Source of the DNA: a virus
Taxonomy: Duplodnaviria > Heunggongvirae > Uroviricota > Caudoviricetes
Length of the DNA: 64,000 bases
Virus record (IMG/VR): IMGVR_UViG_2654587772_000002
Direction: 5' to 3' (one strand)
The notes beneath the pieces are model-generated. The model was not told the DNA's origin. It was given only the letters and a program-made list of their open reading frames with translations, and made no database searches. Both the position numbers and the translations under genes were made by a program. Position 1 is the stretch's first letter. The number at the start of each line of letters is the position of its first letter. Positions 1-20,334 of the stretch are shown here, in pieces.

Positions 1-1023
1 TGCCTTACCAGGTCTACCGCATCTTTCAATGCCGCCAGCGCCTTTTTATCGAGGCTATCCGCTGTCTCAATGCCATCAACAATAGTTGTCACAGCCTGCT
101 TGTGCGCTTCTCCTGATAAAGCCTGCATCTGGACAAAATCATTGGCTGCCGCATTAAGCGCCGTCAGAACATTACGCATATCCGGATCAGGTTCTTCTGC
201 AACCATCCTTACCAGGCGCGCATCCTTATATGCCTTGGCAAAGATCGCGTTTTGTATACGGTCTACAAGTTGCCGCGTTGGTCGCCCATCTTCCGTTACA
301 AGGCCAGCAGCCTGTGTGGCACCAACTTGCGTCATGAATCCGCGAATAAACGCGTCATTACTGCGGCTAAGCAGATCTCCACTTTCTGACGGGTTAAACA
401 ACGCCATCATCGCCGGTGTTATGCTGTCGGCATCAACAAAAGCCTTTTCACTGGCTGCCATTTCCTGGAGATCAGAAATATTTGAGTCCTTGGCAAACTG
501 AACACGGTCAGCCTTCGTTAACCGGCGGCGCACCAGTACCGGAGCCGTCATTGATTCAACCTTTTCAGGCCGTATGCCGAATTCGGTCGCATGTTCAATC
601 AGGTACTCCCGATACCGATCCGCATTACCGTCCTGATAGGCTTTAATGATCCCCATGGTCCGCCCATTACCTGACTCAACGGCATTGTCCTCACCAATTA
701 TTGGCGCGCCATGGCTGGATAAACCGGAATCGGTAAGCTGGGCAGGACGCAAATCCTTGGATATCTGGTTGACCTGAAGAAGGCTGGATGCGCGGGTCCG
801 GTCGCGCGGCTGAAGTTCCTGGGGATAGTCTGGATTAATTTTCCCATCCAGAGTATTGGATACCAAAAGAACTGAGGCATCGACGATATCAAACGCTGTT
901 TTTACCTCGTCTCCCTTCGCTGTCACCACATACGAAACCCGCCCGTAATCGGGCAGGTTTTTTAGCAGCTCGATCAGCGTTTCTATGCTGGTGGCCATCA
1001 CCACCTGATCGCTTAAGCTCATC
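1..1023 (-). CDS. Hypothetical protein, N-terminal 341 codons only (gene runs off the window start); possibly a P1 DdrB-like virion protein
   Basis: My own minus-strand translation from an ATG at 1021-1023 appears open to position 1. It is not in the ORF track, which seems to list only complete ORFs. It lies directly downstream of the 121-aa gene. Product assignment is speculative. Confidence 0.4.
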
Positions 1024-1034
1024 CCTGTTACGCC

Positions 1035-1400
1035 TTATGCTGCCTCTTTAATGTTGGCGGCTATCCATGCCGCCGTGTGCTGTTTAACCTGGTCCAGATC
1101 GATGTATGTGCCAACATATTGACTCAAGTCCTGCAACGTACCGATAAATGCATCGGTGCTCTGATCGACGAATTTATCAGCCAGGAAATCAGCAACCAGT
1201 TTTGGCACACCATCATGTACCGAAGGTTGTTTTTCCTCGCCACTACCGCCGCCGGACGCGCCGTACCCCATCTGTTGCATGATCTGGTCAATTTCATCGC
1301 TGATATCCAGCAACTCCATGCCACTCGCGGTAGCCGCTTTGGACATCAGAGCATCCAACTTATCGCTGAGATCCATTAACTCAATAGCTGATAGTGTCAT
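1035..1400 (-). CDS. Small acidic hypothetical protein (121 aa); possibly DdrA-like
   Basis: ORF track. Overlaps the upstream 639-aa gene by 4 nt, suggesting operon coupling. No recognisable motif. Confidence 0.55.
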   Translation of the reverse strand: MTLSAIELMDLSDKLDALMSKAATASGMELLDISDEIDQIMQQMGYGASGGGSGEEKQPSVHDGVPKLVADFLADKFVDQSTDAFIGTLQDLSQYVGTYIDLDQVKQHTAAWIAANIKEAA

Positions 1401-3316
1401 GCCGCTACCCCCGCTTTCTGGATTGCTACCAGCAGATCAGCCAGGTGGCGAGCTGCGCCGTTAACCAGCTCTTCGTTTTCCTCAAAACGTCCGGCAGCCT
1501 GAAGGGCTGCAATCGCTTCCCGGACATTGCCCCGGGCGTTACGGATCTCCGCCATGTCAGTGCTTTGTATATCCATCACGTTATTGAGATATTCAATGGC
1601 TTTATTAGCCTCTGCATCTGCTTCGCTAACCGTTTCATCAGGCTGTGCCGGGGCCGGTTCTGGCTGAGTAATCTCACCGACTTCGGCCTGCAATGCATTG
1701 ATCATGCTCTGCACCATTTTCTCGGTGCCAGCGCCCCCAGGAAACGCAATATTGGGGAAAGTTTTTTGAAACTGAGTTTTCAGCATTACGCGGAACTCGT
1801 CTGGTGAGCTGGTGGCCAGCTCCAGAGCTTTTTGTGCATATTTGCCAAACGGACCATTAGTAAGTGTCTTCGCCAGGAAGTCGAAAGAATCCTCGCGAGG
1901 CAATAACTTCAGGTCGTACTCACTCATTTGCTGATCAGAAAGCGGGGTATCGTAAGTAGCAATGCCGTAGCGTGCATATTCATAATACGGGTCACCTTCA
2001 TCAGGGCGCGGCAGAATTGCTTTGTTACCTTCAGGTATTGCGCCAGGGGCCGCCGGACGCATTTGCAGGGCATATCGATATGCACCTACAGAGACTTCTG
2101 GTTCAGGCGAAGAGCTACCGGTATCCTCCGCTGGTTCAGGCTCGACGTTTTCCGGTTTATGTTCTTCTGGTTGGACCAGGTATTCCGATACATTACCCGC
2201 TTTATAGGCTTTAAACAGCTTGCCGATCGCATCTGCCATGTCCACACCCTGTATGGATTTAGCCTTGATCATGTATACGCTGCCATCCGGATCGGTTAAC
2301 TGGATATACCCTTCGCCGCCCCCAATGAATTGCTTCATTGATGCACCATTACTGAGCGTCACTTCCCCGTCCATATGCATACGATTTTTGATACTGGCAA
2401 GGCGATCCGTCAGCGCGCGAGAGTGCCCACCAGTCATCCCCGCTGGAGCAATGGTATCGCGCCCACCAGTGCGATTGAGCTGATCAATCTCCGTCTGCAA
2501 ACGCTCATTCTCTTCATAAAGAGAATCCGCTTCCGATGCAACAGCGTTAATTTTCTGCTCCAGATCTGCCTTCTGCCCTTCTACCGCTGCCACCTGATCC
2601 GCGAGGTCGCTCATGGCATCCTCTTTCTGGTCACTGTCAGCCTGTAGTTGGGTTATTTCATCAACAAGGGCTTTTTTCTTCTTCTGCGCACGCTGGAATT
2701 TTGCCGAGTTTTTCTCTGCAAGGTTGGCAAGTTTCATGGTGACCTGCGCCAGCGTCATATCACGTCCACTCATCGGAGCAACGGTGTGAGTAACGTCTTT
2801 TTTATTCAGTAAGAACTGGAAAGCAACCAGCGTATCGCTATTGGTGATCCGGTTTTCCGCTGTCGGGCTATGAAACAGAATGCTGATAGTCTGACCATCA
2901 CTGAGCGGAATAATGGCTGGCAGGACTGGCAGCCCGTTAACGTTACGTGCCCGGCCAATTTCAGCGCCGCCGATCGCGCGCGCGCCGCTCTGGGCCACAT
3001 CCCCCGTTTTATCACTCCCCGCAGAGATTCCGGTACCATTCAGCTTCTGGTTCAATGCCCGGACAAATGCCTGCATGGTCCGGTGTAACTGCAAACGAGT
3101 AGAACTAATCGCCTCCAATAAATCCGTAGCACACCAGTGGATCGGCGTGTCATAGAAGAACGTTGCCTCGATTTCCTCCAGGGTGTTGGATTCCGTCATC
3201 AGATAGCGGTCCTGACCAGCCATTAATGCGCGATATTCATCATCAGTCACCGGCGGGGGAAGCACGTCAAGCCCCGGCTTAATCGTCACCCCTTTATTGA
3301 TATTGAACTGTTCCAT
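1397..3316 (-). CDS. Large acidic coiled-coil protein (639 aa); possibly DarA-like virion antirestriction protein
   Basis: ORF track. Central coiled-coil with Q/E/K-rich heptads and acidic low-complexity segments. Shares a conserved block (TL..V......KNSAKFQ) with the adjacent 203-aa protein. Size and operon position match what I recall of P1 DarA; unverified. Confidence 0.6.
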   Translation of the reverse strand: MEQFNINKGVTIKPGLDVLPPPVTDDEYRALMAGQDRYLMTESNTLEEIEATFFYDTPIHWCATDLLEAISSTRLQLHRTMQAFVRALNQKLNGTGISAGSDKTGDVAQSGARAIGGAEIGRARNVNGLPVLPAIIPLSDGQTISILFHSPTAENRITNSDTLVAFQFLLNKKDVTHTVAPMSGRDMTLAQVTMKLANLAEKNSAKFQRAQKKKKALVDEITQLQADSDQKEDAMSDLADQVAAVEGQKADLEQKINAVASEADSLYEENERLQTEIDQLNRTGGRDTIAPAGMTGGHSRALTDRLASIKNRMHMDGEVTLSNGASMKQFIGGGEGYIQLTDPDGSVYMIKAKSIQGVDMADAIGKLFKAYKAGNVSEYLVQPEEHKPENVEPEPAEDTGSSSPEPEVSVGAYRYALQMRPAAPGAIPEGNKAILPRPDEGDPYYEYARYGIATYDTPLSDQQMSEYDLKLLPREDSFDFLAKTLTNGPFGKYAQKALELATSSPDEFRVMLKTQFQKTFPNIAFPGGAGTEKMVQSMINALQAEVGEITQPEPAPAQPDETVSEADAEANKAIEYLNNVMDIQSTDMAEIRNARGNVREAIAALQAAGRFEENEELVNGAARHLADLLVAIQKAGVAA

Positions 3317-3317
3317 G

Positions 3318-3929
3318 TTAATTTCCTGCTTTCAGTTGCTTAAGACGGCGTTTGAGTTCGCCATTCCGTGCCTTTTCGTTATTGAGTCGGCCCGTCTCCT
3401 TATCCAACTTCGCCCGCAAATCTGTGATCTGCTGTTGATTGAAAGACACCGAATTCTGCGCGGACTTATAAGCGGCAACCACCTGAGCATTCCGCTGTTT
3501 TGCTTCTTGCAGGCGCTGAAAGTTGGATTTAACTGCCGGTTTCTTGTCTACCGGATTGGCAACACGCTTCGCTTTGGCGATCAGTGATTTCTGGAATTTC
3601 GCAGAGTTTTTGCGGGCCGCTTGCCCCATGACGGTACCAAGCGTCTTGATATCTGGCGACTGTGCGTTAGGAATAGATTTTCCATTCAGTTTCACAGCCG
3701 ATATATCACCAGTATCGTTTACCTGTATGGCAAGAATTTGTCCGTCGTTAAGAACCAGTTTTGCGGTTTTAACTTTAACGCCATCTTTCGTTGTTGCGCG
3801 GTTGCTGGAGTCAACCTCAATTACCGTAACACCGGTTTTATTGATCGCCGCGATAAGGGATTTCAGCCCCTTTTCATTAACCTGGTCAAAATCGACCGTT
3901 GCATACTTATTTTTCGTCATCTGACACAT
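3318..3929 (-). CDS. Hdf-like protein (203 aa), homologous over about 60 aa to part of the downstream 639-aa protein
   Basis: ORF track. Shared motif ..DGQ.L.I.....NSAKFQ followed by a basic coiled-coil tail in both proteins. Confidence 0.6.
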   Translation of the reverse strand: MCQMTKNKYATVDFDQVNEKGLKSLIAAINKTGVTVIEVDSSNRATTKDGVKVKTAKLVLNDGQILAIQVNDTGDISAVKLNGKSIPNAQSPDIKTLGTVMGQAARKNSAKFQKSLIAKAKRVANPVDKKPAVKSNFQRLQEAKQRNAQVVAAYKSAQNSVSFNQQQITDLRAKLDKETGRLNNEKARNGELKRRLKQLKAGN

Positions 3930-4350
3930 CCTGTGCGAGATTTATTACGTAACTTCTGCGGATTTGCTGAGTAACAGGGAAAATCCGATACAACGGGTTA
4001 ATGAACGAGTCGCCATGCGTAACCATGACGTTGAAATGCCACAGTCGCTCTCCTTTACCCATATATTCAGTGGGTATGTACAACCATTCACTGTTTTCGC
4101 CCTGTTCAGCCGACGTCAGACAACGTTGTTCGCCTTCAATCACTGTCGTCGGCTTCTGAACATCGCGGATCCAATATCTGACCGTTGCGCCGCGCAAAAA
4201 CGGGAATTTAGACCGGTATTTGAACGGCACCCGAATGAAACCCGGTTTAATTTCCACATCACCAAGTTCTAAATGCGTGATGTCCTTGCGTTTTAGCAAA
4301 TAGCGATCGGCTAAGGCTAACGCAAGAACGCATACACCCCAGCCAATCAT
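3907..4350 (-). CDS. Membrane-anchored protein (147 aa), putative LydB-like antiholin
   Basis: ORF track. Single N-terminal hydrophobic helix (IGWGVCVLALALA). Overlaps the upstream holin-like gene by 4 nt. Size matches recalled P1 LydB. Confidence 0.5.
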   Translation of the reverse strand: MIGWGVCVLALALADRYLLKRKDITHLELGDVEIKPGFIRVPFKYRSKFPFLRGATVRYWIRDVQKPTTVIEGEQRCLTSAEQGENSEWLYIPTEYMGKGERLWHFNVMVTHGDSFINPLYRIFPVTQQIRRSYVINLAQDVSDDEK

Positions 4351-4676
4351 TTCCCACCTCCCTTTTTCACCAAACTTGTAAGAACATTCAGAATGCTATC
4401 GATATTCACTCGTTTCATCCCTGAAATCACCTCATGACCGTTATTGCTGGCTATCGTTACCATTAAGTACGTAATTGATAACTCCCAGCCTTCGTGTTGC
4501 CCCAATAGGTACGCCACCGCGCCAGCTGTCACTGCAACAAAGATCTCCGTAACCAATCCCAACAAGTTGCCAGACTGGCGACCATCTCGGACATCCATCA
4601 GGAACGTGCCTATCCCACCAATTACTGAAAGCAGGAGCGCAATAGCAACTGGAGCTAATTCCTGTGTGTCAAGCAC
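4347..4676 (-). CDS. Small membrane protein with 2-3 TM helices (109 aa), holin-like (LydA-like)
   Basis: ORF track. Hydrophobic segments APVAIALLLSVIGGIGTFL, EIFVAVTAGAVAYLLG and ITYLMVTIA, with a charged C-terminal tail. Confidence 0.55.
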   Translation of the reverse strand: MLDTQELAPVAIALLLSVIGGIGTFLMDVRDGRQSGNLLGLVTEIFVAVTAGAVAYLLGQHEGWELSITYLMVTIASNNGHEVISGMKRVNIDSILNVLTSLVKKGGGK

Positions 4677-4778
4677 AAGTTCCCTCCTACGTTGTCAGGA
4701 GGTAATGGTATGCAAAGTAACTTCTCAACCGGTCATGTTACTTGACATCCTCCACGTCCTTTAGAGCGTGGAGGATGT

Positions 4779-5650
4779 GTGCGCCCAGCATGGGCGCGAT
4801 CTTGGAGGTGAAAGCCCTCCCGCGAGCTGACCACAGCGAGCGAAAGGAAGTGCAACTGCGTGAGGGCGGCTAGGCGTGGGGAGGAAGCACGGAATGAACC
4901 CGTGAGCCGATGAACAAGAATCGGATATGAGGCGCGATGGAGCAAGGCGAGCAGGCACATCACTGCGAAGCTTTCGTGACAAAGTCGCGTAGATCCGACG
5001 GTTGTGCGGGGAAGGATCGCGTTCTTACCTGGGGAGTTCTCGCCTCATGCCTGAAAGGGCAACGTCGTAAGACGGAGCGAGAAGTCAGCAGAGGCCGTAG
5101 TAGTCAGGACTCCGACGAAGGGCCGAACGAGAAGGAAAGCCAAAAGATATGACTCTTGACAGGACATTGCGTCAGAAGCCGGGGAAGCCCGGTACGGACC
5201 CGCATGCCGGGTGGTGTGGCAGGGGCGCAGCCTTGTGCTCCCCCCTATGCCGATCAAGCAGAACATTGTGCTGGGCCTCTGACGCATCTCCTTGATGGTC
5301 TTGGCATCGTGCTTAAGTGGATTGGTGTCGTCTCTGATAGGCTCATGGAGGCAGAATGAAACTCAAAAATCCGGGACAGCACGCAAAACAGGCTGCACAA
5401 AAAGCGCAGGTTGCGTAGGAGTGGAATCCCGCTCCCAAAAAATGGTGCAGAAGTTGCGGCAGTGGTCATCCGACGCACTGGAAAATAACAAACCCGCCGT
5501 GACCAGAATCGGAGGCCTGAGGGAGTGACCGTAAAACCGGATAACCCAGGCAGCAAATACCCGCTGGATGAGGCATGGTTCCGGCAGATAATACCGAAAA
5601 CCGCCAGACACACTGGATAATCAGTAGAAATAACCCATTAAAATCATTAT
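4779..5650 (+). mobile_element. GC-rich non-coding region with a group II intron-like 5' end (GUGCG plus first stem); possibly an ORF-less or degenerate intron; 3' boundary unknown
   Basis: GTGCGCCCAGCATGGGCGCG at about 4779 resembles the canonical group II 5' end and first domain I hairpin. An 8-bp hairpin (CCTCCACG...CGTGGAGG) lies just upstream. No long ORF on either strand and no reverse transcriptase. I could not identify a canonical domain V by eye. Confidence 0.3.
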
Positions 5651-5674
5651 AATAATTGGGCACATTATTATATT

Positions 5675-6238
5675 ATGCTGAATAATAGAGACATGAATAT
5701 TAATGAACTTAAAGACTGTATTCACTATGAAGTAATCGGTAGCGAGCGTCCTTTCTCCTGGCGAAAGGCAATTGTTCGCGCAATAAAACATAGAAGAGTT
5801 CGTTATTTATTTTGGTGGCGCATAGCCAAATACCTTTTTGATAAAGGCGGATACTGTCGGAAGATTGCGGGGAAAATGGAACGTTTCATTCTTGATAAAT
5901 ATAGTGTAACAGTCCCTTTAACTGTAAATATAGGGAAAGGCTTTGATATTTCTTATCTCAACGGTGTTGTTATCGGTCACAAAGTAACCATTGGTGAAAA
6001 TTGTTCAATAAAACCAGGGGTAACTATTGGGCTACGTGGTGATTTTAATGATATGGATATTGTTATAGGACATAATGTGACCATTGGTTGTAATGCCACC
6101 ATTCTTGGTGGCAAAGTGCGTATAGGAAACAATGTCACAATAGGTGCTCATGCATTGGTATTGCATGATATTCCTGATGATTCAACATTCATCACTAAAT
6201 TTCAGTCTGAAGTTATCTGCTCGTCCTCTTGCACATAA
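5675..6238 (+). CDS. Hexapeptide-repeat acetyltransferase, serine O-acetyltransferase (CysE)-like
   Basis: Tandem [LIV]-G-x-x-x-x hexapeptide repeats ([21 protein letters not shown]...[32 protein letters not shown]) after a CysE-like N-terminal helical segment. AT-rich, and on the opposite strand to the flanking phage genes. Confidence 0.8.
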
Positions 6239-6819
6239 CCCTGATTCATCAGCTCTGGCCATACGATATCCGGAGCTGTACTGGTGTCAATTCGACTCAC
6301 TAATACTCTGTATTTTCTCCAGGAATCCAGTTGTGAATTTTCCTCGGTTGTTGCTATTTCAAGATTAACTGCATCCTGCAGAATTGCGATGTTATCTGTT
6401 GCCTCCTGAATCAACCTTGCCTTTTTCTCTTCCGCTTCCCGTATCCGAAACAGTTTTTCTGCTTCCTCATCCTTCACCCAGGATACGCCGTCCCACTTCT
6501 GATACTCCCCTGCTGGCGACAACCAGGTGACATTCTCTGGTAACGGTCCGAGTTCAGAAATAAACAACGCGTCCCCCGATGCCACGTCATAGACCGTTTT
6601 ACCACGATGGTCTTCAACAATAATCCATGATTCATTTTCACTGTTAAAAACTGCCACAAAGCCAGCAGGAATTTCCGGTGGGGCGATATCTGTAGAATTA
6701 GCTGGTAGCCCTGTATGAGGTGGAATATATGCGTCACCTTCACCAATAAACTCATTAGTTCCGGCGAGCAGGTTATAAATTTTTACAGTACGTGATTGTT
6801 CACTCATTCTGAATGCCAT
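6202..6819 (-). CDS. tfa: Tail fibre assembly protein (Tfa/gpU family)
   Basis: N-terminus [54 protein letters not shown] is typical of the enterobacterial Tfa family. Sits immediately downstream of the tail fibre gene. Confidence 0.85.
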
Positions 6820-7709
6820 TATGCAAGCCTCACAATATAATTAAATGCGATGTTTTTAACGGTGTTTTCCGAGTTACCAGCAGCGTTAACGGTGATGGTG
6901 TGTCCATGTGAACCAATCGCAACAGAGTGCGTATGAGCGCCAATATCAACTGTATGTGCATGCGCCCCTGCACTTGCAGCGGTGCCTGATACTGAGTGGG
7001 TGTGTGCACCAGAAGAAGGCACAGTTCCATTCCCCACCACAGTGCCGCTTGATGAGCCATCAAGCCAGTCGAAATTCATACCGCCACCATCTGGTCTCCT
7101 TAATGGAACGGTATGAGTATGTGCGCCAGCACTATTTGCAGTACCAGATACATTGTGGGTATGTGCACCTGTGTTATTCGTTGATTTAGTACCGTAATCA
7201 AACGAAGATGTGGTTTTCGTACCCAAATCCGTATTGGATGCGCTGGCGCTGTGGGTGTGCGATTTAATGCCATCCTGTTCCAGAGACAATACGTCCCGAC
7301 CACTGGCGGGTTTGCCCTTGATTGTCCAGCCACGCATATCCGGGATCACGCCTGACGGATAAGCGGCTGCAAGTTTCGGGTATGCAGATTTGTCAAAAGT
7401 CTGTCCCTGCATCAGGGCGTAACCAGACGGCACAGTATCTGATGGCCACGGATGCGGAACACCAACAGGAAGGACCTCAATATCCCCGGAACCATCAAAC
7501 GAAACGTTATTAATTTTACGGGCTGTTTTCAGCTTTGTAGCCGTTGAGGCATTGCCGGACAGCTCACCAGAAATGCCACCAACAACTGTTAGATCACCAG
7601 TTATTGTGCCGCCTGAACTTTCCAGTTTTTTAGCAACATCACTCTTAATAGAGTCGATTTCTTTTTTCAGATTAGTTATATCTGCTGGTATCGTTGTCAC
7701 TGTTGCCAT
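6819..7709 (-). CDS. Tail fibre distal (receptor-binding) module with HxH/GAHTH repeats
   Basis: Carries the junction motif [26 protein letters not shown], then [32 protein letters not shown], repeated GAHTH(S/T)V motifs and the C-terminal [11 protein letters not shown] typical of side tail fibre tips. Confidence 0.8.
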
Positions 7710-7718
7710 ATTAATTCC

Positions 7719-7997
7719 TTACGCCCATTCCCGCAGCGGTTGTTCTAATTGAACTTCAAAACCATCAAACATTTGTTGTTTCAAACTGTTGTTTAAAATA
7801 CGAACATTAACGAAGAAGCCATCATTTTTAATCACTGTTGGTTCTTCGTTCTCGCCGTTTGGTATTTCGGTATATGTAACACCTACAACATCAAGAAGAA
7901 TGTTGTTTTGCAGCTCTTCATTATCGTGCCAGGATATACTCTCTAAAAAAGAGTCGTATTCTGCCCTGTCTCTGAATTTCAACGTGATATCTTTCAT
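7719..7997 (-). CDS. Hypothetical protein (92 aa) between the tail fibre genes
   Basis: ORF track only. Acidic, no motif recognised. Abuts the stop of the long fibre gene. Confidence 0.4.
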   Translation of the reverse strand: MKDITLKFRDRAEYDSFLESISWHDNEELQNNILLDVVGVTYTEIPNGENEEPTVIKNDGFFVNVRILNNSLKQQMFDGFEVQLEQPLREWA

Positions 7998-10897
7998 TAA
8001 ATAACCTCAGCCATTTGTTGGTCTGTTAATGCTTTATGCCATATTCTGAAATTTCTGATATGACCAAATAAATGACGTAACCCTGCTGTAGTCTGGCCTC
8101 CAATACGGATGGTTGCAGAGTTCTGAATATAGGACCATGTCGTCTTTGTTTCGCTGGATATGCGCCCGTTACTTACTGAGCACGTAGACTGATCTGATTT
8201 TACACGCATCCCCATAACCATTTTTTCAAGCAATGCGTTTTCGTTTACCCGTCTGTTAGCTCCTCCAATATCGCAATAAGGAAATCCGTCGTAATCTGCT
8301 GAAGAACCGAAGCCAAGAATAATAGCCGCTCCGGTTTGATGACCGCCGGTATCAAAAACACGTGGCGCTGCATTTGGCGTTTTATACCAGTTCTTATGTA
8401 CCTCACAAAGAACCGTAAAAGGAAGATTATAAAGATTATTATTAATTGGAACTGTAACTATATCGCTTGCGCGGGTAGCCGCCGTCGTTCCCGAGATAAT
8501 AAAAGATGATGCACACGAACCATCCTCAACCTGAGGGGTGGACAGATAAATATAGTCTCCAGATATGGTTGCTCCGCCCTGCTTAGGAGAATACTGTATC
8601 TGAGATCCTATTTTTAACTCATCATCAATTGCCTGGATTGTTGCCTCTGCAAAAATCCATCCGGTAGCTTCGTCCTTTCTGACTCTCGCTGTAATCCTTG
8701 AGGCCGCGCCACCTGTCATATTAATTTCAAGCGTTTGTGTATCAATATATGCATCACCAAGAAAAGTTGTTGCACTACCGTCATATTTATCAAAGCGGAT
8801 ACGTAACCTTACCTGTCGTTCTGTTTTAAAACGACATGAGGTTGTCACGTACTTGTTATCGCCTGAAACATCAACTGACTTTGTAGCAGCAATTGATGCC
8901 ATATTAATGGCTGACGTTTGCCCAATCAGAGAATCGTTACAGACAAACTTTCCATAGGTAAAACCAAAACTATCCGTCCCGGTTTCGGGAACATCCATAT
9001 TTGACGAGCGCCCCCAACTGGCAGGGTTTTCCGAATTGAGCATGTAGTTTGTTCGTTGTCCCTCAATAAGCAGACCATCACGTTCAAATCGTGGCTCGTC
9101 AATGGCAGCCTCTGTCAGCACACCAGATTTATTTATATAGGTTGCTTTCGATGCGCGTTTAAACTTAACAACCTTGTCGCCAGGCATTGTTATTTCGTCG
9201 TCGCCAATAACAATCTTTTTATATGATGGAGAAAAGCCCGCAATCATATCCAGCGAATCGTTAAACGGTATCCACACATCTGGCAGCGGTTGAATAATCT
9301 TCCTGGCATCCTCCAGTGACAATGCTTCGACATCCGAAGCTGTTAAAGAAATATCTGCCGAACCGTCAAATGAAACGTTGTTAATCATCCGTGCTGTTTT
9401 TAATTTCGTTGCGGTGTCGGCGTTCCCCATCAGTGCGCCGGTGATCCCGCCGTTGAAAGTCTGGCGTGCACTCCATGTGTTAGCCGTGCTCAACAGGGGG
9501 ATCTTTTCACCGCTTGTGCCGAGTTCTCTTAAACCAAGGTATTGGATAACAGCAAGGACGCTTGTTTTGGACAGAATATCGCGACCGACTGACGTTAAGT
9601 CAGTCTGAGAAACAGTGTCTGTACCGGTAAAGTACGGCAGTTTATTTGCGCCTGTAGCAAGACCAGCAAGCGCGGTTAAAGTTGCATCCAGAGGCTGTTT
9701 GCCTGCCAGCGCATTTGTCATTGTTGTCGCAAAGTTCGGGTCATTACCAAGTGCTGCGGCAAGCTCATTCAGGGTATCAAGAGCTTCTGGTGATGAACCA
9801 ACCAATGCGGATATGGCAGCTCTTACATAAGCAGTCGTAGCAATCTGCGTATTATTTGTGCCCTGCGCAGCCGTAGGCGCAGTAGGGACTCCCGTTAATG
9901 CAGGGCTTGCCAAAGGCGCTTTGAGGGCTAGGGCATTGTTGATAGTTGTGCTGAAATTCGGGTCGTTATTGATCGCAGCAGCTATTTCTTTAAGCGTATC
10001 CAGTGTGCCAGGTGCACCGTTGATAAGTGCCGTTATAGCTGACTTAACAAAGGCTGTATTTGCGATCTGCGTGCTATTTGTACCTTGCGCTGCCGTCGGC
10101 GCGGTTGGCGTTCCTGTCAGACTCGGGCTTTCTATTGGCGCTTTGGTATCAGCAAGACCTTTTACAGACTTAACGGCTTTAGGGGTAGCCGCCATTGTTT
10201 CGCTGTCGCTGTTAGTTTCGCTACTGAGCTGAACTAATCCCTTTTGCGTTGTGCTTGCATCCTGTGCCGTATACTTGCTTTTCGCCAGATCGTAGGCTTT
10301 TTTAGCTGCCAGCGAACTTGCAGCAACATCACTTCTGCTACTGGTTACAGAGTCTGAAATATCAATGCCGATCGTGCGGTTAATACGCTCGGATGTATCA
10401 ATCATCTCCTGGGTAATGGCTGATACGCCAGCAGGGATATTCACCGTACAAACAAGCAGCTCTCCATCTCCTAACTGATATGAATCGGTATAGGTTCTGG
10501 CAACAAATTCAGCCGCATGAATATGTGACGCGGTATTAACCTGATAGGTATCCTCTCCAAGGAGGTATCTTCCCTTCAGCACAATTGCATATTTCTTGCC
10601 TTCACTAAGTGCAAGAGAAATATCCTTACGGTGCCGAATAGTTACCTGGTAGAATTCACCAATATCCACTGACGCAGCGCCAGCAGTTTTATCACCATCC
10701 ACTGAGGTGATTAACAGGTTCATACCACCGCCAGGCTTCGGCAGGAAACCGGCATAAAACCCAGGATCAACAATTCCCCTGAATTTTCGGTTTAGCGCGG
10801 CTGACAGATATGGTTCGTGGTATTGCACATCAGCCACCAGAGCCAGTGACTCGGGCGATGGGTAAGTAACTGATGTAACAACTGTAACGTCATTCAT
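7997..10897 (-). CDS. Long tail fibre protein (Stf / gpS-like), about 966 aa from the internal Met
   Basis: Start set by codon arithmetic at Met30 (MNDVTVV...). Contains the TQKGLVQLSSETNSDSETMAATPKAVKSV fibre motif, collagen-like Ala/Thr/Pro repeats, and the junction motif [26 protein letters not shown] followed by its own C-terminal domain. Confidence 0.85.
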   Translation of the reverse strand: MNDVTVVTSVTYPSPESLALVADVQYHEPYLSAALNRKFRGIVDPGFYAGFLPKPGGGMNLLITSVDGDKTAGAASVDIGEFYQVTIRHRKDISLALSEGKKYAIVLKGRYLLGEDTYQVNTASHIHAAEFVARTYTDSYQLGDGELLVCTVNIPAGVSAITQEMIDTSERINRTIGIDISDSVTSSRSDVAASSLAAKKAYDLAKSKYTAQDASTTQKGLVQLSSETNSDSETMAATPKAVKSVKGLADTKAPIESPSLTGTPTAPTAAQGTNSTQIANTAFVKSAITALINGAPGTLDTLKEIAAAINNDPNFSTTINNALALKAPLASPALTGVPTAPTAAQGTNNTQIATTAYVRAAISALVGSSPEALDTLNELAAALGNDPNFATTMTNALAGKQPLDATLTALAGLATGANKLPYFTGTDTVSQTDLTSVGRDILSKTSVLAVIQYLGLRELGTSGEKIPLLSTANTWSARQTFNGGITGALMGNADTATKLKTARMINNVSFDGSADISLTASDVEALSLEDARKIIQPLPDVWIPFNDSLDMIAGFSPSYKKIVIGDDEITMPGDKVVKFKRASKATYINKSGVLTEAAIDEPRFERDGLLIEGQRTNYMLNSENPASWGRSSNMDVPETGTDSFGFTYGKFVCNDSLIGQTSAINMASIAATKSVDVSGDNKYVTTSCRFKTERQVRLRIRFDKYDGSATTFLGDAYIDTQTLEINMTGGAASRITARVRKDEATGWIFAEATIQAIDDELKIGSQIQYSPKQGGATISGDYIYLSTPQVEDGSCASSFIISGTTAATRASDIVTVPINNNLYNLPFTVLCEVHKNWYKTPNAAPRVFDTGGHQTGAAIILGFGSSADYDGFPYCDIGGANRRVNENALLEKMVMGMRVKSDQSTCSVSNGRISSETKTTWSYIQNSATIRIGGQTTAGLRHLFGHIRNFRIWHKALTDQQMAEVI

Positions 10898-10908
10898 CAA
10901 GCATATCC

Positions 10909-11343
10909 TTATGCTATAGTCGTGTTGATGGCCATAACTGCGGTATATGTTTTTCCCACATACAGCGAGTCTTCCTGAACACAAATAATTGCGATGGGCT
11001 TATTCTCGTTATCCAGAACAACCAGAGTGTTGAATGGATAGTTTTTCCCTTCCTGCAACTGGCTTTGATCAAGGTCCATTCGGACAGTAATTATCCCGCC
11101 AGAGTAGGTTGGGACGAGGTTGATGGTGCAAAATTGACTGGTCAGTTCTGCCAACTCGAAAGTCTTTGGCAGTTCTCCAATGTCATAAGTACCATCTTCA
11201 TTTTTGGTAACCAGCGAACTGGTGCCGAAAACGGCCTTGCTGATTAAAAATCGAGAGCCTTTGTTAATGGACGATTCAGCGCGTCGCTGATAGTAATAAT
11301 CCAACAACTGACTCTTATAGAGATTTGTTGAGACGTCAGACAT
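10909..11343 (-). CDS. Tail fibre/baseplate-associated protein (144 aa), gpR-like by position
   Basis: ORF track. Immediately upstream of the long fibre gene. Confidence 0.55.
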   Translation of the reverse strand: MSDVSTNLYKSQLLDYYYQRRAESSINKGSRFLISKAVFGTSSLVTKNEDGTYDIGELPKTFELAELTSQFCTINLVPTYSGGIITVRMDLDQSQLQEGKNYPFNTLVVLDNENKPIAIICVQEDSLYVGKTYTAVMAINTTIA

Positions 11344-11421
11344 GATTTTCCCTAATCAATGTTGTGAAGCCTCATTGTAAGAGAAGTAACTTGTCACCCC
11401 GCCCTGCGGACGGGGTAATTG

Positions 11422-12261
11422 TCAGGCATCGCTATCCAGCAGCAAATCATCTGCGCGGGAGCGATCAAACGTAGGCGTTGCTTTCACAATAGTGCCGCCC
11501 GGCGTTGCAGTGATCGGGGCACTAATCGACGTAACTCCGGCAAGCGAAGTTGTATCCGAAGTTTCAAACCAGCAGTACGCTTTTTCGGTATCAGAAATCT
11601 CGTTCAAAGTGATCATGTCGGCCTGTTCATTTACAACAACCGACAAATAGAGCGTAAGCCCATCAAACACTATATGCAGTGGCAGTAGAGGCTTTACGAA
11701 CTGATTAAACTTTCTGAGAATTTCTTCTGTAATTGCGGACTGATCTATCGTGCCAGTAATACCCATTGTCCTGGCCAGGTCGTTTATGGGAATACTGATC
11801 ATCCCTCTGGAAGTCAGAAACATCTCGCCGAATGTGCCGCCAGTAGTCTCCAGTGTGCTTTCTGGTATTAGAACTGTGCCATAGGGATGACGCTCAAGGT
11901 CCACCGGTGCATATATCGGATCCCATAAAACAGAAATACCGTTAAATTCGCGGTAAATTGTCTGGTTTATAGGACGTTCAGTTCCCTTAAAGTGGATCTC
12001 ATCAAGCCGCTGTTGTAACAACATCGGAACGGAAGATGAGTTCGAGGTTCTGATAGTAAAGAACTGGCCAAGTTCATTTGTCCTGGTCTCCAGATCCTCC
12101 TTGCTCATGGAGAAAATAGACTTCCGGTTGGTAATTCGCTCCAACCATGGGTCAACAAAGGTGTCCATCATTGACTGAACCAAATCAGCCAATGATTTAT
12201 AGAGCAATGACTTTTGCTTAGCTGATGTAAGCCGGTTATTAAACCAGGAACGCTGCATCAC
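11422..12261 (-). CDS. Baseplate/tail protein (279 aa)
   Basis: ORF track. Overlaps the upstream gene by 4 nt. Position between the baseplate-like 477-aa gene and the fibre genes. Confidence 0.55.
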   Translation of the reverse strand: MMQRSWFNNRLTSAKQKSLLYKSLADLVQSMMDTFVDPWLERITNRKSIFSMSKEDLETRTNELGQFFTIRTSNSSSVPMLLQQRLDEIHFKGTERPINQTIYREFNGISVLWDPIYAPVDLERHPYGTVLIPESTLETTGGTFGEMFLTSRGMISIPINDLARTMGITGTIDQSAITEEILRKFNQFVKPLLPLHIVFDGLTLYLSVVVNEQADMITLNEISDTEKAYCWFETSDTTSLAGVTSISAPITATPGGTIVKATPTFDRSRADDLLLDSDA

Positions 12262-13691
12262 TCCTCCTCATACGAAATATTAAAGGTGGAGCTTTCTGTA
12301 TCCAGATAAACGAAATCGTAAAAGCCGTTGGACTCATTCCACTCGACAAATTCCAGATAAAAGTCGCGGAAATAACCCAGCGTTTCGATAAACGCCCAAA
12401 CGTCTTTTTTCTTAATCAGGATGTACTTTCCGACGCGGTTCGGATCAAAGAAAGTTGAGTCGCGCCCAAATTTTGTTTCCAGTGCCGACTTCAGCTCATC
12501 GGTCACATTCTCAATGGTCAGGCTTGCCGATATCCGTCCGGTGATGGTTATCTTAAATGGTAGTTTTCTGACCTCTTTATAAGAGAATTTCTTGTTCAGT
12601 TCATTCGGTACCTTCTTAAAGGCAGTCAGGATCATTTCTTCAAGCTCTGACTGGCTTTTATTTGGATGCCATCCTGAAATAAATATCTTATTGATATTCT
12701 GAACATTATAAGCACCATCTAATTTCTCTTGCTGGCCTTCGCCCCATGCCTTTACCCAGGACAGCCCCGGGATGTTACGAACCAGAAAATACGTATAGTC
12801 CCCGCCCCATACGACCTGATCATCATAGGCAAGGTAATATTGTGCACGGTTACGTGTGATCTCCGTTGTTTCAGCATCGGTACCTGCGGTTATAGGTGTC
12901 GTTGTCTTAACTGAAATCAAATTAGCTAAATCAGCCGCAGAATCGACAGGCGTCAGGTTTTGGCCAGCAACCAGGGTTATATCGCCGTTGGTGCACCATA
13001 CCTTAAGCGTAATTGTCGAACCTTCTGGCGGTATTTGCCCAATTAGCCCATCGCCGAATCGAACCCCCAACTGCTCGGATGGTTTATAAAACTCAACGTA
13101 GACCTGGCTTTTACTACCGGCTAACCGGAACATAGTGCTGGAAGACCACTGCGTGGTCTTCCCATCGGTTGTCACGAATACTTCCAGCTTATAGCAGACA
13201 GCAGTAAGAGCCTTTGATAACACGACTTCCAGAAATTCTTTGGCTGCCGTAACGGTATATGTCACCTCCTGGATTTCCAACTGTGCCACTTCTACCGTAC
13301 CGGTGCCGTCAACCAACCTGCATACATCCATAGTCATGTAAGGGTACTGGTCGTCAGATATTAAAGGCATGTTTTTGGGGATTACCGCTGGGGCATCTTC
13401 ACTTGTGGCGGTGATCTCAATCATCCCCGATGACGGTGTTGGCTTGGTACCAACATAACTGTTCGTTTCTGCCGCAGCCAGGATAGAGGAACGCCGCGTC
13501 GCGGTCGATATAAAGCCTTCAGCCAGCGCCGCATCGGCATACTGAAAGCACCTGTAGACAATCTGGGTAATAAACAATGTCAGCATCGAGACAAATTGAG
13601 AGCCGACAAACTTCGACCAGAATGAATCTTTCTCGACAAGCTCTTCAAACTCTGCACGAATACTGTCTTTAGTCGGTGTTGTTTTACTCAT
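12258..13691 (-). CDS. Putative baseplate J-like structural protein (477 aa)
   Basis: ORF track. Size and position in the tail module. Assignment by context, not motif. Confidence 0.55.
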   Translation of the reverse strand: MSKTTPTKDSIRAEFEELVEKDSFWSKFVGSQFVSMLTLFITQIVYRCFQYADAALAEGFISTATRRSSILAAAETNSYVGTKPTPSSGMIEITATSEDAPAVIPKNMPLISDDQYPYMTMDVCRLVDGTGTVEVAQLEIQEVTYTVTAAKEFLEVVLSKALTAVCYKLEVFVTTDGKTTQWSSSTMFRLAGSKSQVYVEFYKPSEQLGVRFGDGLIGQIPPEGSTITLKVWCTNGDITLVAGQNLTPVDSAADLANLISVKTTTPITAGTDAETTEITRNRAQYYLAYDDQVVWGGDYTYFLVRNIPGLSWVKAWGEGQQEKLDGAYNVQNINKIFISGWHPNKSQSELEEMILTAFKKVPNELNKKFSYKEVRKLPFKITITGRISASLTIENVTDELKSALETKFGRDSTFFDPNRVGKYILIKKKDVWAFIETLGYFRDFYLEFVEWNESNGFYDFVYLDTESSTFNISYEEE

Positions 13692-14047
13692 AGCACCACG
13701 TCCTGTGTGATAGTTATATCCCTGATACGAATGGATATTTTCAACTTATCAAAAGCATCTCCCTCGGCTACTGACAAGCCAGAAATCGGTATGTCAGGTA
13801 AATCTACCGTCAGTTTTTGCAACAGCATTGCCTCAACCGCAATTTGAACATGCGACAAGTTGGTCGGTTCGTGTTTAAACTGCGGTAAAACATTGCCCCA
13901 TGACGGATCTCCGTATACCTCACCCTGATAAGTGTTTAGCCACTCATATAAACGAGCGCCCCAGGCCTCCTCCTGGGACTCATACGTTTTTACGCCGGAT
14001 AACTCCAGCGTCAGCAAAGGATCAATTTCGTTATTGTTGGCCATCAA
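13688..14047 (-). CDS. Small tail/baseplate protein (119 aa)
   Basis: ORF track. 4-nt overlaps on both sides indicate operon coupling. Confidence 0.55.
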   Translation of the reverse strand: MMANNNEIDPLLTLELSGVKTYESQEEAWGARLYEWLNTYQGEVYGDPSWGNVLPQFKHEPTNLSHVQIAVEAMLLQKLTVDLPDIPISGLSVAEGDAFDKLKISIRIRDITITQDVVL

Positions 14048-17000
14048 TCAACTCTCGCGTAGTCATTCATCAACGGATCATCAATTGACAGTGGCACCGT
14101 GCGCATAACGCCCGGTTGAGGCGTGCTGACCTTTACGACAGTTCCCTGGCCTTTCGCCGAGTCTTTAGTGTGCTCTTCAATCCTGGCAAGCAATGAGGTC
14201 ATCTGCGCAAACAGCCGCTTCGTTTCACCATCAAGTGAAACGGTATTATCAGCCAACTGCATTGTCGGCTTGGCACCAGAGCCGCCAAGGTCACTAATAA
14301 CCTGTCCGTCTATCTGCATACGACCGGTTGGTTGCTGCAAATCGTTGGCGGCAGTCGTCACCTGGGACGTGGAGGCTGGTTGAGGAGAGTTATTTGAGCG
14401 CATTCCCCGGGCATTAATGAGTTTGTCATACAGCCCATCAATCCCCATTTGTGCACCGAGTTGGTCAAAGTAACTTGAGTTGTTTGCTACCGGACGTGCC
14501 TCTTCAACTGGCATAGGTGTATCAACATACACATTGCCAGCAGCCGTTGCGGTTCCCCTTCCTCGTGCACGTTCTTCGAGGGTTCCCTGAACGACTTCCC
14601 GACGCATCCCCCGACCATTCATGAATTTGTTGACCAGATCGTTAACGCCAACAGCATTACCGATTTTGTCTACCAAACCGCCTTTCTCAAACGGGCTATC
14701 ACCAGGGGTAAACGCCAGACCAGTAGACTGATCGATAACGGCGTTATCAGGCAGTGGTCCCCTCACTCCATATTGCGCCCCACCCTGTGCTCCTGCTCCA
14801 GGTGTATAGATTTCACCACCTAAATAGCGAGCACGATGAGTATTGACCTTGATCGCGTACTCACGGTTTTCTTTCGATAAGTCACCTGTGCCTTTTTTCC
14901 ACTTATTGATAGTGCCAAACCCAGCATTATATGCAGTGATGGCCTCGTTTAAGTCTCCATTGGCTTGCTTCAGATACTTGCTCATGAGAAGAGCCGCAGC
15001 TTCTGCCGATTTCACAGGATCAAATGCATCCTGTTCCGATATCCCTGTCTCTTTACGAGCAATACTCGTGAACTGGAACATCCCGAGTGCGCCACCACTT
15101 AACTTTCCATCTGGTGATCTTGTAAGCGGAGACTTTGCGTTAGGATCCCCTCCTGATTCAGTTGCCGCAATCGAGTAAAGAGTGCCTTCAGGAAGGCCAT
15201 ATTTATTCTCTAGTTCAGCAAAATACGGAGCCAGCTTATCCAGATTTGCCTTACCTTCAGCGCCAAGGCTTCCGACTTTTACATCTAAGTTGCCATTGTT
15301 GTAGGTATCCGCAGCTTTCTGAATGTCATTCCTAGTGCCAGTAGTATTAAGCGACGATGATGATGAGCTATTTTGACCAATAGCATTATCAATTTTCTGC
15401 AACGCTCGATTGCCCGTTTCTACGGCATTTGCATTGATAATCTGATTGGCAGTTTCTTTAACTGTTTTATTGCTATCTTTCGCCGTCTCTAGGGATGCAT
15501 TTACAACACGAGTGACAATATTAGCCTTTTTAGGGGTATATTCAGTCTTAGGAGCATTGTCCTCCTGACTTTCTTTAGCTGGTGTTTTTAATTCAGGTGT
15601 AACCTCTTTCGCATCCGCTTTGTTGACTAGCTTTGATGCAACCCAGGCCACAGGGGTGCTCTGAACAGCGGCATCGGCAACCTTACCAGGAAGCTCTTTT
15701 GCGGCATTCCATAGATTACTACCAGCCTCTTTAATGTATTTTCCCGGGTTCTTAATGAAATCAATTGCACTATCAATTGCATCACTGAAAACCTTTTTCA
15801 GGTTATCGACAGTAAAGAAGTCTTTGATGGCGTCTAATTTTTCGTTCAGACTCTTGGTTGTGTCACTGAACCAGGCTGAAATAGCATCGCCAATCTTGGC
15901 TGTGTAATCGTTGAATGTTGTGGATATGGTGTCACCAAGGTTAGAAATATATGTTTCTAAATTGGTAATCCCACTATCAATGGCCTGGGCAATACTTTCC
16001 GTCGAAAATGATTGCAACATATTGCCGATATCCTCAAATCCAAGTGATTTGAGAACGCCACCAATGGCATTGCTAATACCAGATACCAGTCCTCCCATAT
16101 CGAGAACGTTAGCCAGTGTATAAGCCGCTTTTTGCTGAAAAGATGGATCTTCCCCATCCTTAAGCCCAAAGGTCCGACGTTGTGCTTCTGTATCATTCCA
16201 ACCGGTTACCGCATCATAGATACCTCCAGCCACCGTGCCGACTAGCGGAATTGCGCGTAAAGCCCCCTTTGCAAAAGCCTTAACACCTAGTTTCTCCAAT
16301 CCCTTAGTTGCAAGTTTTCCGGCACCGCGAGTAGCCAATTCGCCAGCTTCTTTGGCAGCAGCTTTTTTCCCACCAAAGCCCAATAAGCTTGCAACTTTTT
16401 TTATACCTAAAGCGCCTAGTGCCATCGAGCCAACTTTCTTTAGTGCCCCACGGCAAAAAATAAGGGAAGCAATACCACCGGCCCCCTTCCCTAACAGGCT
16501 AAATAATTTGGACAGCAAGCCGCCCTTCTTTTTCCCGGTGTTTTTGGCTATCTGATCAAGGGCGCTGAGAATCTTGTCATTGCCCTCTTTAATTTCGCTG
16601 GTCTGATCCTGAAGTTCCTGAACCGTCCGTTTTTGGGTGTTAACCTGAACGACATCGGCACTACTTTGCGATTTACGCCTAAAAAAACCTTTTCTACGGC
16701 TGTTATCGTCATTGCCACGAATCACATCGGCAATTGACTTTCTGGCACCATTAAGCGAACCGCCAACTTCTTTTGATATTCCGCCAAGCTCCTTTCCTGC
16801 TGCCCACAATGGACCAGCAACGGCATAACCTAAAGCATCGACGGCACGAGTCTCTGAAGGGTTACCTATGCCTTCAGCTACTTTTGACAGTTTTTTTAAT
16901 AAACCCGATTCAGCATTTAGACGCTCATCATCCTCTTTGCGCCTAGCTTTTTCAGCACGTTCAGCACGGGCATCTTCCGCTGCGGCCTTACTCCCTGACT

Positions 17001-17472: not shown

Positions 17473-17553
17473 GATCTTATCGCCTACCGTTTCGGTTTAA
17501 GTTTTTCTTCCAGTTTCTCCAACAGGAAAAACGCATAGGATTCAGTAAGCCTT

Positions 17554-18435: not shown

Positions 18436-18449
18436 CCTTGCTCCTTAAT

Positions 18450-19061: not shown

Positions 19062-19071
19062 ATCAGCCCCC

Positions 19072-19662
<591 letters not shown>

Positions 19663-19996
19663 TTAACCGATTCTACGAGTAGTCATTTGTTCATCGTGTA
19701 ACAATATTGCCATTGGATAAAATAACTACAGCGCCCACAAACGGGCGCATTCTGTACATGACTTGAGATATATTATGTTGCATTAAAGCTTTTCAAATGA
19801 TAATCAGCCAAGCCTTTCGCAATTATCGGCATAGTATTTTGTTGCATTTACTATTATTGACTCATAATACGATTTGCATTCTTTCTTCCATGGAGTGCAC
19901 GAATTTATTTTTTCCATATCGTTTTTATTTTTAGAAATACCAACAAGCATAATGTACCCGATAAATCTTGTTGTCAACGCGCCAATCGGTAGCGTT

Positions 19997-20284: not shown

Positions 20285-20334
20285 TGTTATTCTTTCGATC
20301 TTACCCCGAATTCTAGAAGTTTGACTCCATTCAT

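What the first reader, a model, noticed from the sequence alone, without database searches (positions are those of the whole stretch)
1..4676. Operon whose sizes and order resemble P1 lydA-lydB-hdf-darA (defence against restriction), next to a lambdoid prophage
Six co-directional, tightly packed minus-strand genes: a 109-aa multi-TM holin-like protein, a 147-aa single-TM protein, a 203-aa protein, a 639-aa acidic coiled-coil protein, a 121-aa protein and a large gene running off the window. The 203-aa and 639-aa proteins share a clearly homologous block (…DGQ.L.I… then TL..V......KNSAKFQ), which is the relationship implied by the P1 name Hdf (homolog of Dar fragment). Sizes match what I recall for P1 LydA, LydB and DarA. 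If correct, a virion-packaged antirestriction system is present in a chromosomal phage mosaic.
Basis: partly seen in the sequence, partly recalled or inferred. Interest (0 to 1): 0.6.

Follow-up and report, generated by a model that had tools for sequence, protein, structure and literature searches.

The report
Phage P1 darA antirestriction operon
This is the well-known lydA-lydB-hdf-darA-ddrA-ddrB operon of phage P1, about 98% identical to P1 itself; it sits inside a 20.7-kb block of P1-type phage-plasmid DNA whose apparent place in the chromosome beside a lambda-like prophage is probably an assembly artefact.

Summary
Window 1-4736 is 97.9% identical in DNA, with no gaps, to the phage P1 darA operon. 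The proteins match P1 closely: LydA 100%, LydB 98.6%, Hdf 98.0%, DarA 98.4%, DdrA 97.5%, and the first 340 aa of DdrB 98.5%. The P1 late promoter LPdar is unchanged. DarA and Hdf match the solved P1 capsid structure (PDB 9ukm/9vz0) over their full length.

The operon is not an isolated module in a lambdoid mosaic. It is the left end of a P1-type (Punavirus) block, window 1-20673, that continues through the tail-fibre, baseplate, sit, pmgB, tub and pmgC genes. At base 20673 this block abuts codon 38 of lom in a Rac-like lambdoid prophage.

The window matches E. coli ST2747 assemblies. Their paper says about 14 PacBio scaffolds per strain were ordered and joined into one "gapless chromosome". 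Three isogenic assemblies show three different P1/prophage junctions, and the two sister assemblies in the collection carry different flanking duplications. The P1 block there also carries plasmid replication and partition genes. The chromosomal location is therefore probably an artefact, and the element is probably an ordinary P1-like phage-plasmid. Already known; low interest.

The parts
4705..4723 (-). LPdar, the P1 late promoter (-10 and -22 elements, dependent on the activator Lpa) upstream of lydA
   Evidence: Window 4660-4736 is identical base for base to P1, where LPdar is annotated at the matching position. P1 homology ends at 4736.
4347..4676 (-). lydA, holin (109 aa)
   Evidence: 100% aa identity to P1 LydA. 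Pfam PF16083 'LydA holin' above its cut-off.
3907..4350 (-). lydB, LydA-holin antagonist (147 aa)
   Evidence: 98.6% aa identity to P1 LydB. Pfam PF16084 LydB, E=8e-104, full length.
3318..3929 (-). hdf (203 aa), a basic protein (pI 10.2) with the DarA_N fold that pairs with DarA inside the capsid
   Evidence: 98.0% aa identity to P1 Hdf. Pfam DarA_N, E=3.8e-21. Full-length match to PDB 9ukm chain H 'Hdf', E=3e-121.
1397..3316 (-). darA (639 aa), internal head protein required for defence against restriction
   Evidence: 98.4% aa identity to P1 DarA. Pfam DarA_N (E=1.5e-42) and DarA_C (E=5.7e-17). Full-length match to PDB 9ukm chain I, 1385 bits.
1035..1400 (-). ddrA (121 aa)
   Evidence: 97.5% aa identity to P1 DdrA. 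No Pfam family.
1..1022 (-). 5' part of ddrB (first 340 of 995 codons); the gene runs off the window
   Evidence: 98.5% aa identity to the first 340 residues of P1 DdrB. Pfam ddrB-ParB, E=1.2e-39. The gene is full length (995 aa) in sister assembly CP007393.
4737..20673 (-). Rest of the P1-type block. It holds a group II intron remnant and an acetyltransferase gene where P1 has lydC-cin, then U-like tfa, the tail-fibre genes, R, 16, bplA, pmgA, sit, pmgB, tub, pmgC, a small cargo module, and the last 25 codons of a 212-aa P1-plasmid gene.
   Evidence: 95-98% identity to P1, P7, SJ46 and many P1-like plasmids. The genuine plasmid NZ_CP027575 matches 19600-20673 in one piece and stops at the same base.
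20673..20783 (-). Join between the two elements. The first 38 codons of the lambdoid lom gene are fused in frame to the 3' end of a P1-plasmid gene; this is a probable scaffold or contig join.
   Evidence: Translations. Lambdoid homology starts at 20672/20673 in hundreds of E. coli chromosomes. The fusion ORF is not on record anywhere else.

Best explanation
Window 1-4736 is the darA operon of a P1-like (Punavirus) phage-plasmid. The following steps are shown for P1 and are inferred here from near-identity. During lytic growth the activator Lpa switches on the late promoter LPdar, which transcribes lydA (holin), lydB (holin antagonist), hdf, darA, ddrA and ddrB as one unit. Hdf and DarA share the DarA_N fold. 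They bind as 55 pairs to the inner face of the P1 capsid at each penton-hexon junction and contact the packaged DNA. The first ~69 residues of DarA are probably removed by the head protease Pro. Without Hdf or DarA the other Dar proteins (DdrA, DdrB, Ulx, DarB) are missing from the particle. The set is ejected with the DNA and protects whatever DNA was in the head from type I restriction (EcoA, EcoB and EcoK families). The operon belongs to a colinear P1-type block covering window 1-20673. The contact of that block with a Rac-like lambdoid prophage at base 20673 is most likely made by the assembly, so the Dar proteins serve P1-type capsids and not the neighbouring lambdoid phage.
For: Identity of the operon:
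- 97.9% ungapped nt identity to P1 over 4736 bases, and 19 phage records with at least 95% identity and at least 80% coverage.
- The gene order matches the P1 annotation gene for gene.
- Proteins are 97.5-100% identical to P1.
- Pfam finds LydA holin, LydB, DarA_N (twice), DarA_C and ddrB-ParB.
- PDB 9ukm/9vz0 gives full-length hits for DarA and Hdf.
- LPdar is unchanged.

Mechanism: taken from PMC12810830.

Context:
- P1-like synteny runs to 20673.
- In the sister assemblies the block also holds c1, lpa, a head-processing protein gene, phd/doc, a dnaB-type helicase, a RepB-family replication initiator and ParA/ParB-type partition genes.

Artefact:
- The paper states that about 14 scaffolds were ordered on a reference map and joined into a gapless chromosome.
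- Three isogenic assemblies have three different junctions.
- In CP007393 the ~92-kb P1 block lies between two copies of a 4.46-kb 'J-lom-stf' segment that differ mostly by indels.
- In CP007394 the block lies between copies of a different segment (tail tube to K) with frameshifted genes at the copy ends.
Against: No experiment was done on this element; function is inferred from sequence identity alone. ddrB is cut by the window edge. darB, ulx, pro, lpa and the capsid gene lie outside the window. In one sister assembly the gene at the darB position is annotated as frameshifted and is only 4.5 kb; this could be a PacBio consensus error or real decay. In all three assemblies the P1 block lies beside the same prophage in the same orientation, which a purely arbitrary placement of scaffolds does not obviously predict. 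A direct repeat flanking an inserted circle is also what Campbell-type integration would produce.
Confidence: 0.9

Rival explanations
1. The P1-like element is truly integrated in the chromosome inside the tail region of the Rac-like prophage, for example by recombination over shared lambdoid tail sequence. The Dar operon would then be carried by a chromosomal composite prophage. The different junctions in the three assemblies would be real rearrangements selected or induced during nitrofurantoin exposure.
For: The P1 block has the same neighbour and the same orientation in the window and in both sister assemblies. It is flanked by direct repeats of prophage sequence, as Campbell-type integration would give. 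The P1 tail-fibre gene shares 93.5% identity over 1.27 kb with the prophage stf gene, and the plasmid carries its own Ail/Lom-family gene, so homology for recombination exists. Nitrofurantoin damages DNA (background knowledge).
Against: The junctions do not lie in the homologous stretches. At 20673 the two sides share at most 1-2 bases. The flanking repeat differs between two isogenic assemblies: 'J-lom-stf' in one and 'V-ydaY-H-M-L-K' in the other. The window and CP007393 each hold sequence at the junction that the other lacks, so neither can be derived from the other by deletion. Genes at the ends of the repeat copies are full of frameshifts, as at low-coverage contig ends. The paper describes concatenation of scaffolds. 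The junction ORF is on record nowhere else.
Confidence: 0.1
2. The block is a decaying, defective P1 remnant. The dar genes would be intact only by chance or would be retained for the lysis genes, and no Dar-loaded particles would be made.
For: The sister assemblies annotate many P1 genes as frameshifted or partial, including the darB-position gene, ant and the tail-fibre genes. J in the window is split into two ORFs.
Against: All five complete operon genes and the ddrB fragment are open and 97.5-100% identical to P1, with an unchanged promoter. The frameshifts differ between isogenic assemblies: for example, the K-gene peptidase (C40 family) is frameshifted in one copy and intact in another. 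That pattern points to sequencing error (28x early PacBio chemistry) and not to decay.
Confidence: 0.1

Closest known systems
Phage P1 darA operon (lydA-lydB-hdf-darA-ddrA-ddrB; NC_005856 positions 24542-31183, with LPdar at 31212-31230)
   Same: Same gene order, gene sizes and gene overlaps, and the same late promoter. 97.9% nt and 97.5-100% aa identity.
   Different: There are only scattered substitutions (10 in DarA, 4 in Hdf, 3 in DdrA, 2 in LydB). Upstream of LPdar, the P1 lydC-cin-invertible C segment is replaced by a group II intron remnant, an acetyltransferase gene and a non-invertible tail-fibre locus.
P1-like phage-plasmids of Enterobacteriaceae (P7, SJ46, RCS47, JL22, E. coli MINF_9A plasmid 3, NZ_CP027575 and others)
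   Same: Colinear over window 1-20673 at 95-98% identity. At least 35 plasmids share the same intron-remnant and acetyltransferase module at 95-99.7% identity.
   Different: Here the block is written into a chromosome record and stops abruptly inside a 212-aa plasmid gene at 20673. SJ46, RCS47 and MINF_9A plasmid 3 carry an IS200/IS605 insQ insertion between ddrA and ddrB that this window lacks.
Rac-type lambdoid prophage of E. coli (recE, trkG, ydaU/ydaV, J, lom, stf, pinR)
   Same: Window 20673-64000 is 98.5-100% identical to chromosomal prophages in hundreds of E. coli genomes.
   Different: It is unrelated to the Dar operon. Its lom gene is cut after codon 38 at the join.

Membership tests
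P1 Dar system, darA operon | Gene order lydA-lydB-hdf-darA-ddrA-ddrB on one strand, tightly packed | tested here: met
   ORF list and spacings compared with the P1 annotation.
P1 Dar system, darA operon | Each product homologous to its P1 counterpart | tested here: met
   LydA 100%, LydB 98.6%, Hdf 98.0%, DarA 98.4%, DdrA 97.5%, DdrB N-terminal part 98.5% aa identity. Pfam and PDB matches agree.
P1 Dar system, darA operon | Hdf and DarA share the DarA_N domain | tested here: met
   BLASTP E=6e-4. Pfam PF18788 is found in both proteins.
P1 Dar system, darA operon | Lpa-dependent late promoter LPdar upstream of lydA | tested here: met
   77 bases (window 4660-4736), including the annotated -10 and -22 elements, are identical to P1. 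Promoter activity was not tested.
P1 Dar system, darA operon | Complete ddrB (995 aa) | tested here: inconclusive
   Only 340 codons lie in the window. The 995-aa gene is intact in sister assembly CP007393.
P1 Dar system, whole | Unlinked partners darB and ulx, the Pro protease and the P1 capsid in the same element | tested here: inconclusive
   These genes lie outside the window. CP007393 has a head-processing protein gene, a 441-bp gene next to the methylase gene, and a 4.5-kb frameshifted methylase-domain gene close to these, which I read as darB by position. No sequence comparison to P1 DarB or Ulx was made.
P1 Dar system, whole | Proteins packaged in virions and protecting DNA from type I restriction | not testable with these tools
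   This needs virion proteomics and plating on EcoA, EcoB and EcoK hosts.
Punavirus / P1-like phage-plasmid | Synteny with P1 late genes beyond the operon | tested here: met
   Window 1-19709 matches P1 at 95.5% identity, and window 1-20673 matches P1-like plasmids.
Punavirus / P1-like phage-plasmid | Plasmid replicon and partition genes, c1 immunity | tested here: met
   Not in the window. In the sister assemblies the same block carries a RepB-family initiator, ParA/ParB-type partition genes, c1, phd/doc and lpa.
Punavirus / P1-like phage-plasmid | cin invertase and invertible C segment next to lydA | tested here: not met
   P1 homology stops at 4736. lydC-cin is replaced by a group II intron remnant and an acetyltransferase gene. 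This is a common variant seen in at least 35 P1-like plasmids, so it does not exclude membership.
Extrachromosomal state of the element | Circular ~93-kb molecule separate from the chromosome | not testable with these tools
   Inferred only from inconsistent junctions and the published assembly method. It needs raw reads, PCR or PFGE.

The most novel reading that the evidence does not exclude
A complete P1-like phage-plasmid has really integrated into the tail-gene region of a Rac-like prophage in E. coli ST2747. This would give a chromosomal P1 prophage whose junctions rearranged during nitrofurantoin selection, so the Dar operon would be inherited chromosomally beside lambdoid tail genes.
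Probability: 0.1. Interest if true: 0.3.

Novelty: already known. Interest (0 to 1): 0.08.

Why it matters
The finding matters little as a discovery. The Dar system of P1 is characterised genetically and its structure has now been solved, and this copy is about 98% identical to it and shared by many P1-like plasmids. There are two practical points. A reader working from sequence alone recognised the operon correctly. The record itself is misleading: a phage-plasmid has very probably been written into a "complete chromosome", which would mislead surveys that count chromosomal prophages, phage mosaics or the location of anti-defence genes.

Tried and rejected
- I first treated the chromosome record at face value as a P1 fragment fused to a lambdoid prophage. 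I dropped this reading after finding two sister assemblies with different junctions and the assembly description.
- I considered integration by recombination between the P1 tail-fibre gene S and the prophage stf gene (93.5% identity over 1.27 kb). I rejected it because none of the three junctions lies in that homology, and the gene order it predicts (J-lom-stf::S-U) is not the one seen.
- I considered recombination between the prophage lom gene and the plasmid's Ail/Lom-family gene. I rejected it because the plasmid side of the join is an unrelated 212-aa gene.
- I looked up the 61-aa junction ORF in public assemblies to find the same join elsewhere; it is not on record.
- I searched 4600-5800 for group II intron domains V/VI with permissive Rfam thresholds and found none. 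I therefore read the element as a 5' remnant and not a complete intron.
- PADLOC gave no hit for the acetyltransferase or for the ATPase and PF20553 genes of the low-GC island.
- The large protein-database searches and structure prediction were not used, because near-identity to P1 made them unnecessary.
Full report
**1. Observation**

- 4347-4676 (109 aa)
- 3907-4350 (147 aa)
- 3318-3929 (203 aa)
- 1397-3316 (639 aa)
- 1035-1400 (121 aa)
- an open frame from base 1022 down to base 3 that leaves the window (340 codons without a stop)

Successive genes overlap or are spaced by -4, -23, +1, -4 and +12 nt. By the hydrophobicity scan used, the 109-aa protein has two hydrophobic stretches and the 147-aa protein has one, at its N-terminus. 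The 639-aa protein is acidic (pI 4.77) and the 203-aa protein is strongly basic (pI 10.2).

The block shared by the 203-aa and 639-aa proteins is real. BLASTP aligns residues 29-115 of the short protein with 107-210 of the long one (28% identity, E=6e-4), ending in KNSAKFQ. Both proteins match Pfam DarA_N well above the curated cut-off.

**2. What the operon is**

Megablast of window 1-4800 against phage genomes gives 19 records with at least 95% identity and at least 80% coverage. They include P1 (NC_005856), P7, SJ46, RCS47 and JL22, and the features under the match are annotated as DdrB, DdrA, DarA, Hdf, LydB and LydA. The P1 annotation has exactly this order and these sizes.

| Protein | aa identity to P1 |
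|---|---|
| LydA | 100% |
| LydB | 98.6% |
| Hdf | 98.0% |
| DarA | 98.4% |
| DdrA | 97.5% |
| DdrB, first 340 residues | 98.5% |

DNA identity is 97.9% over 4736 bases without a gap. Pfam independently names the LydA holin, LydB, DarA_N, DarA_C and the ddrB-ParB domain. DarA and Hdf hit the chains called "Defense against restriction protein A" and "Hdf" in PDB 9ukm/9vz0 over their full length.

The 77 bases upstream of lydA, which in P1 hold the late promoter LPdar, are identical to P1. Homology to P1 ends at 4736. The small antisense ORF iddB annotated inside P1 ddrB is also present, at 70-501.

**3. How it works (shown for P1, inferred here)**

PMC12810830 summarises earlier genetics and adds cryo-EM.
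[quoted passage not shown] These are internal head proteins that leave the particle with the DNA and protect it from type I restriction.
- DarA is needed against EcoA and StySA. The EcoB/EcoK arm involves Ulx, DarB and DdrB.
- Loss of DarA or Hdf gives particles that lack all other Dar proteins and disturbs head morphogenesis.
- Fifty-five DarA-Hdf pairs sit on the inner capsid surface at penton-hexon junctions and touch the DNA.
- DarA residues 1-69 are missing from the density. This is consistent with biochemical evidence that Pro cleaves a ~9-kDa N-terminal fragment from DarA.

LydA and LydB are the holin and its antagonist (Pfam names; P1 annotation). At 97.5-100% identity, and with the promoter intact, the same mechanism is the natural expectation here. 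Nothing was tested experimentally.

**4. Context: a P1-type block, not a lone operon**

P1 homology resumes after a replaced segment and runs to about 19709. It covers the tail-fibre genes, R, 16, bplA, pmgA, sit, pmgB, tub and pmgC. P1-like plasmids match up to base 20673. The genuine 96-kb plasmid NZ_CP027575 matches 19600-20673 in one piece and stops at that same base.

From 20672/20673 onward the window matches a chromosomal Rac-type lambdoid prophage (J, tape measure, P22-type capsid, terminase, trkG, recE) in hundreds of E. coli genomes. The join fuses the first 38 codons of lom to the last 25 codons of a 212-aa P1-plasmid gene, with at most one or two shared bases. So about 16 kb of P1 genes lie between the Dar operon and the lambdoid prophage.

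**5. Is the chromosomal location real?**

Window 42000-64000 is 100% identical to two RefSeq "chromosomes", both named E. coli ST2747 (CP007393, CP007394). The exact DarA sequence is on record only on CP007393 and one similar contig longer than 1 Mb.

The genome announcement (PMC3983296) describes one parent and two nitrofurantoin-resistant derivatives. They were sequenced with early PacBio chemistry at about 28-fold coverage into about 14 scaffolds each. [quoted passage not shown] No plasmids were reported.

Comparison of the assemblies gives the following.
- **CP007393 against the window**. It is identical over 1-7928 and 9516-18309, and it lacks 7929-9515. In place of window 18310-20672 it has 1024 bp holding the rest of lom and the start of stf.
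- **CP007394 against the window**. It joins window base 1266 directly to base 25141.
- **The window and CP007393 cannot be derived from each other by deletion**, because each has junction sequence that the other lacks.
- **Flanking repeat in CP007393.** The ~92-kb P1 block carries c1, lpa, phd/doc, a dnaB-type helicase, a RepB-family initiator, ParA/ParB-type genes, ant and icd. It lies between two copies of a 4.46-kb 'J-lom-stf' segment that are 99.57% identical and differ mostly by indels. One copy ends, and the other starts, exactly at the P1 block.
- **Flanking repeat in CP007394.** The flanking copies are a different segment (tail tube, ydaY, tape measure, M, L, K), with frameshifted genes at the copy ends.
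- **Beyond the second copy** the prophage continues normally into pinR, ydfK, uspF and ompN.

This is the pattern expected when two overlapping chromosomal contig ends are left unmerged and a plasmid contig is placed between them. It is not the pattern of a stable integration shared by isogenic strains. The 93.5% identity over 1.27 kb between the P1-type tail-fibre gene and the prophage stf gene may explain why the plasmid contig was put at this gap each time.

I rate the artefact reading at about 85-90%. Real integration is not excluded, and it needs the raw reads or a PCR to settle.

**6. Comparison with known systems and novelty**

The operon is a member of the P1 Dar system by every sequence criterion that could be tested. 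Completeness of ddrB, darB and ulx can only be judged outside the window, and virion packaging and the phenotype cannot be tested here.

The element is a P1-like phage-plasmid of a common variant that lacks lydC-cin and the invertible C segment. Nothing here departs from what is described for P1 and its relatives, so the finding is already known and of low interest. Its main use is as a warning about this genome record.

**7. Things seen in passing**

These are listed separately: the group II intron remnant, the acetyltransferase module, the mosaic tail-fibre locus, the split J gene, a low-GC methylase island in the lambdoid prophage, an STnc100 sRNA match, and a Tad2-like gene in the sister assembly.

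Noticed in passing
window 4737-5675 (+): An ORF-less 5' remnant of a group II intron sits where P1 has lydC and cin. Rfam RF02001 matches 4860-5024 (95.5 bits) and RF01998 matches 5042-5123 (46.8 bits). There is no domain V/VI match, and no ORF of 100 aa or more apart from one 119-aa minus-strand ORF (5254-5613) that was not examined. The DNA also matches many Sinorhizobium plasmids.
   Followed up: partly
window 5675-6238 (+): A hexapeptide-repeat acetyltransferase gene (annotated elsewhere as serine acetyltransferase) is transcribed towards the tail-fibre assembly gene and overlaps its end. Together with the intron remnant it forms a 1.5-kb module found at 95-99.7% identity in at least 35 P1-like plasmids. 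It has no PADLOC hit, and its role is unknown; modification of a surface receptor is one possibility.
   Followed up: partly
window 6202-10984 (-): The tail-fibre locus has no invertase. It holds a 995-aa S-type fibre, a 92-aa ORF, a 296-aa ORF with collar and fibre-repeat domains, and a 205-aa assembly protein. Bases 8022-9289 of the fibre gene are 93.5% identical to the stf gene of the Rac-like prophage of the same strain. Sister assembly CP007393 lacks 7929-9515.
   Followed up: partly
window 20851-24329 (-): The lambdoid tail-tip gene J is split into two overlapping ORFs (462 and 721 aa). It is a single 3.5-kb gene in the sister assemblies, so this is probably a consensus indel near a contig end.
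   Followed up: partly
window 49714-53213: A low-GC island (GC 0.34) lies inside the Rac-like prophage. It holds a GHKL-type ATPase (HATPase_c_3, 463 aa) and a PF20553 'putative O-methyltransferase' (330 aa) on the plus strand, and a C-5 cytosine DNA methylase (383 aa) converging on the minus strand. The first two have no PADLOC match; this may be a methylase-linked defence module.
   Followed up: partly
window 46852-47038 (-): Full-length match to the Rfam sRNA family STnc100 (86.6 bits) in the lambdoid prophage.
   Followed up: no
L008 16404-17081 (CP007393, left of the window start): Between ssb and hxr, where P1 has isaA-IS1-isaB, the P1-like element carries a DUF2829 / Tad2-like gene (PF11195). 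This family includes anti-Thoeris proteins, so the element may carry a second counter-defence gene near the Dar operon.
   Followed up: no
window 19692-20579: An 888-bp low-GC cargo module with three short ORFs (77, 95 and 57 aa; the first has a signal-peptide-like start) lies between pmgC and the 212-aa gene. MINF_9A plasmid 3 has a different 2.1-kb module here, including an SH3-domain protein. NZ_CP027575 shares the module found in this window.
   Followed up: partly
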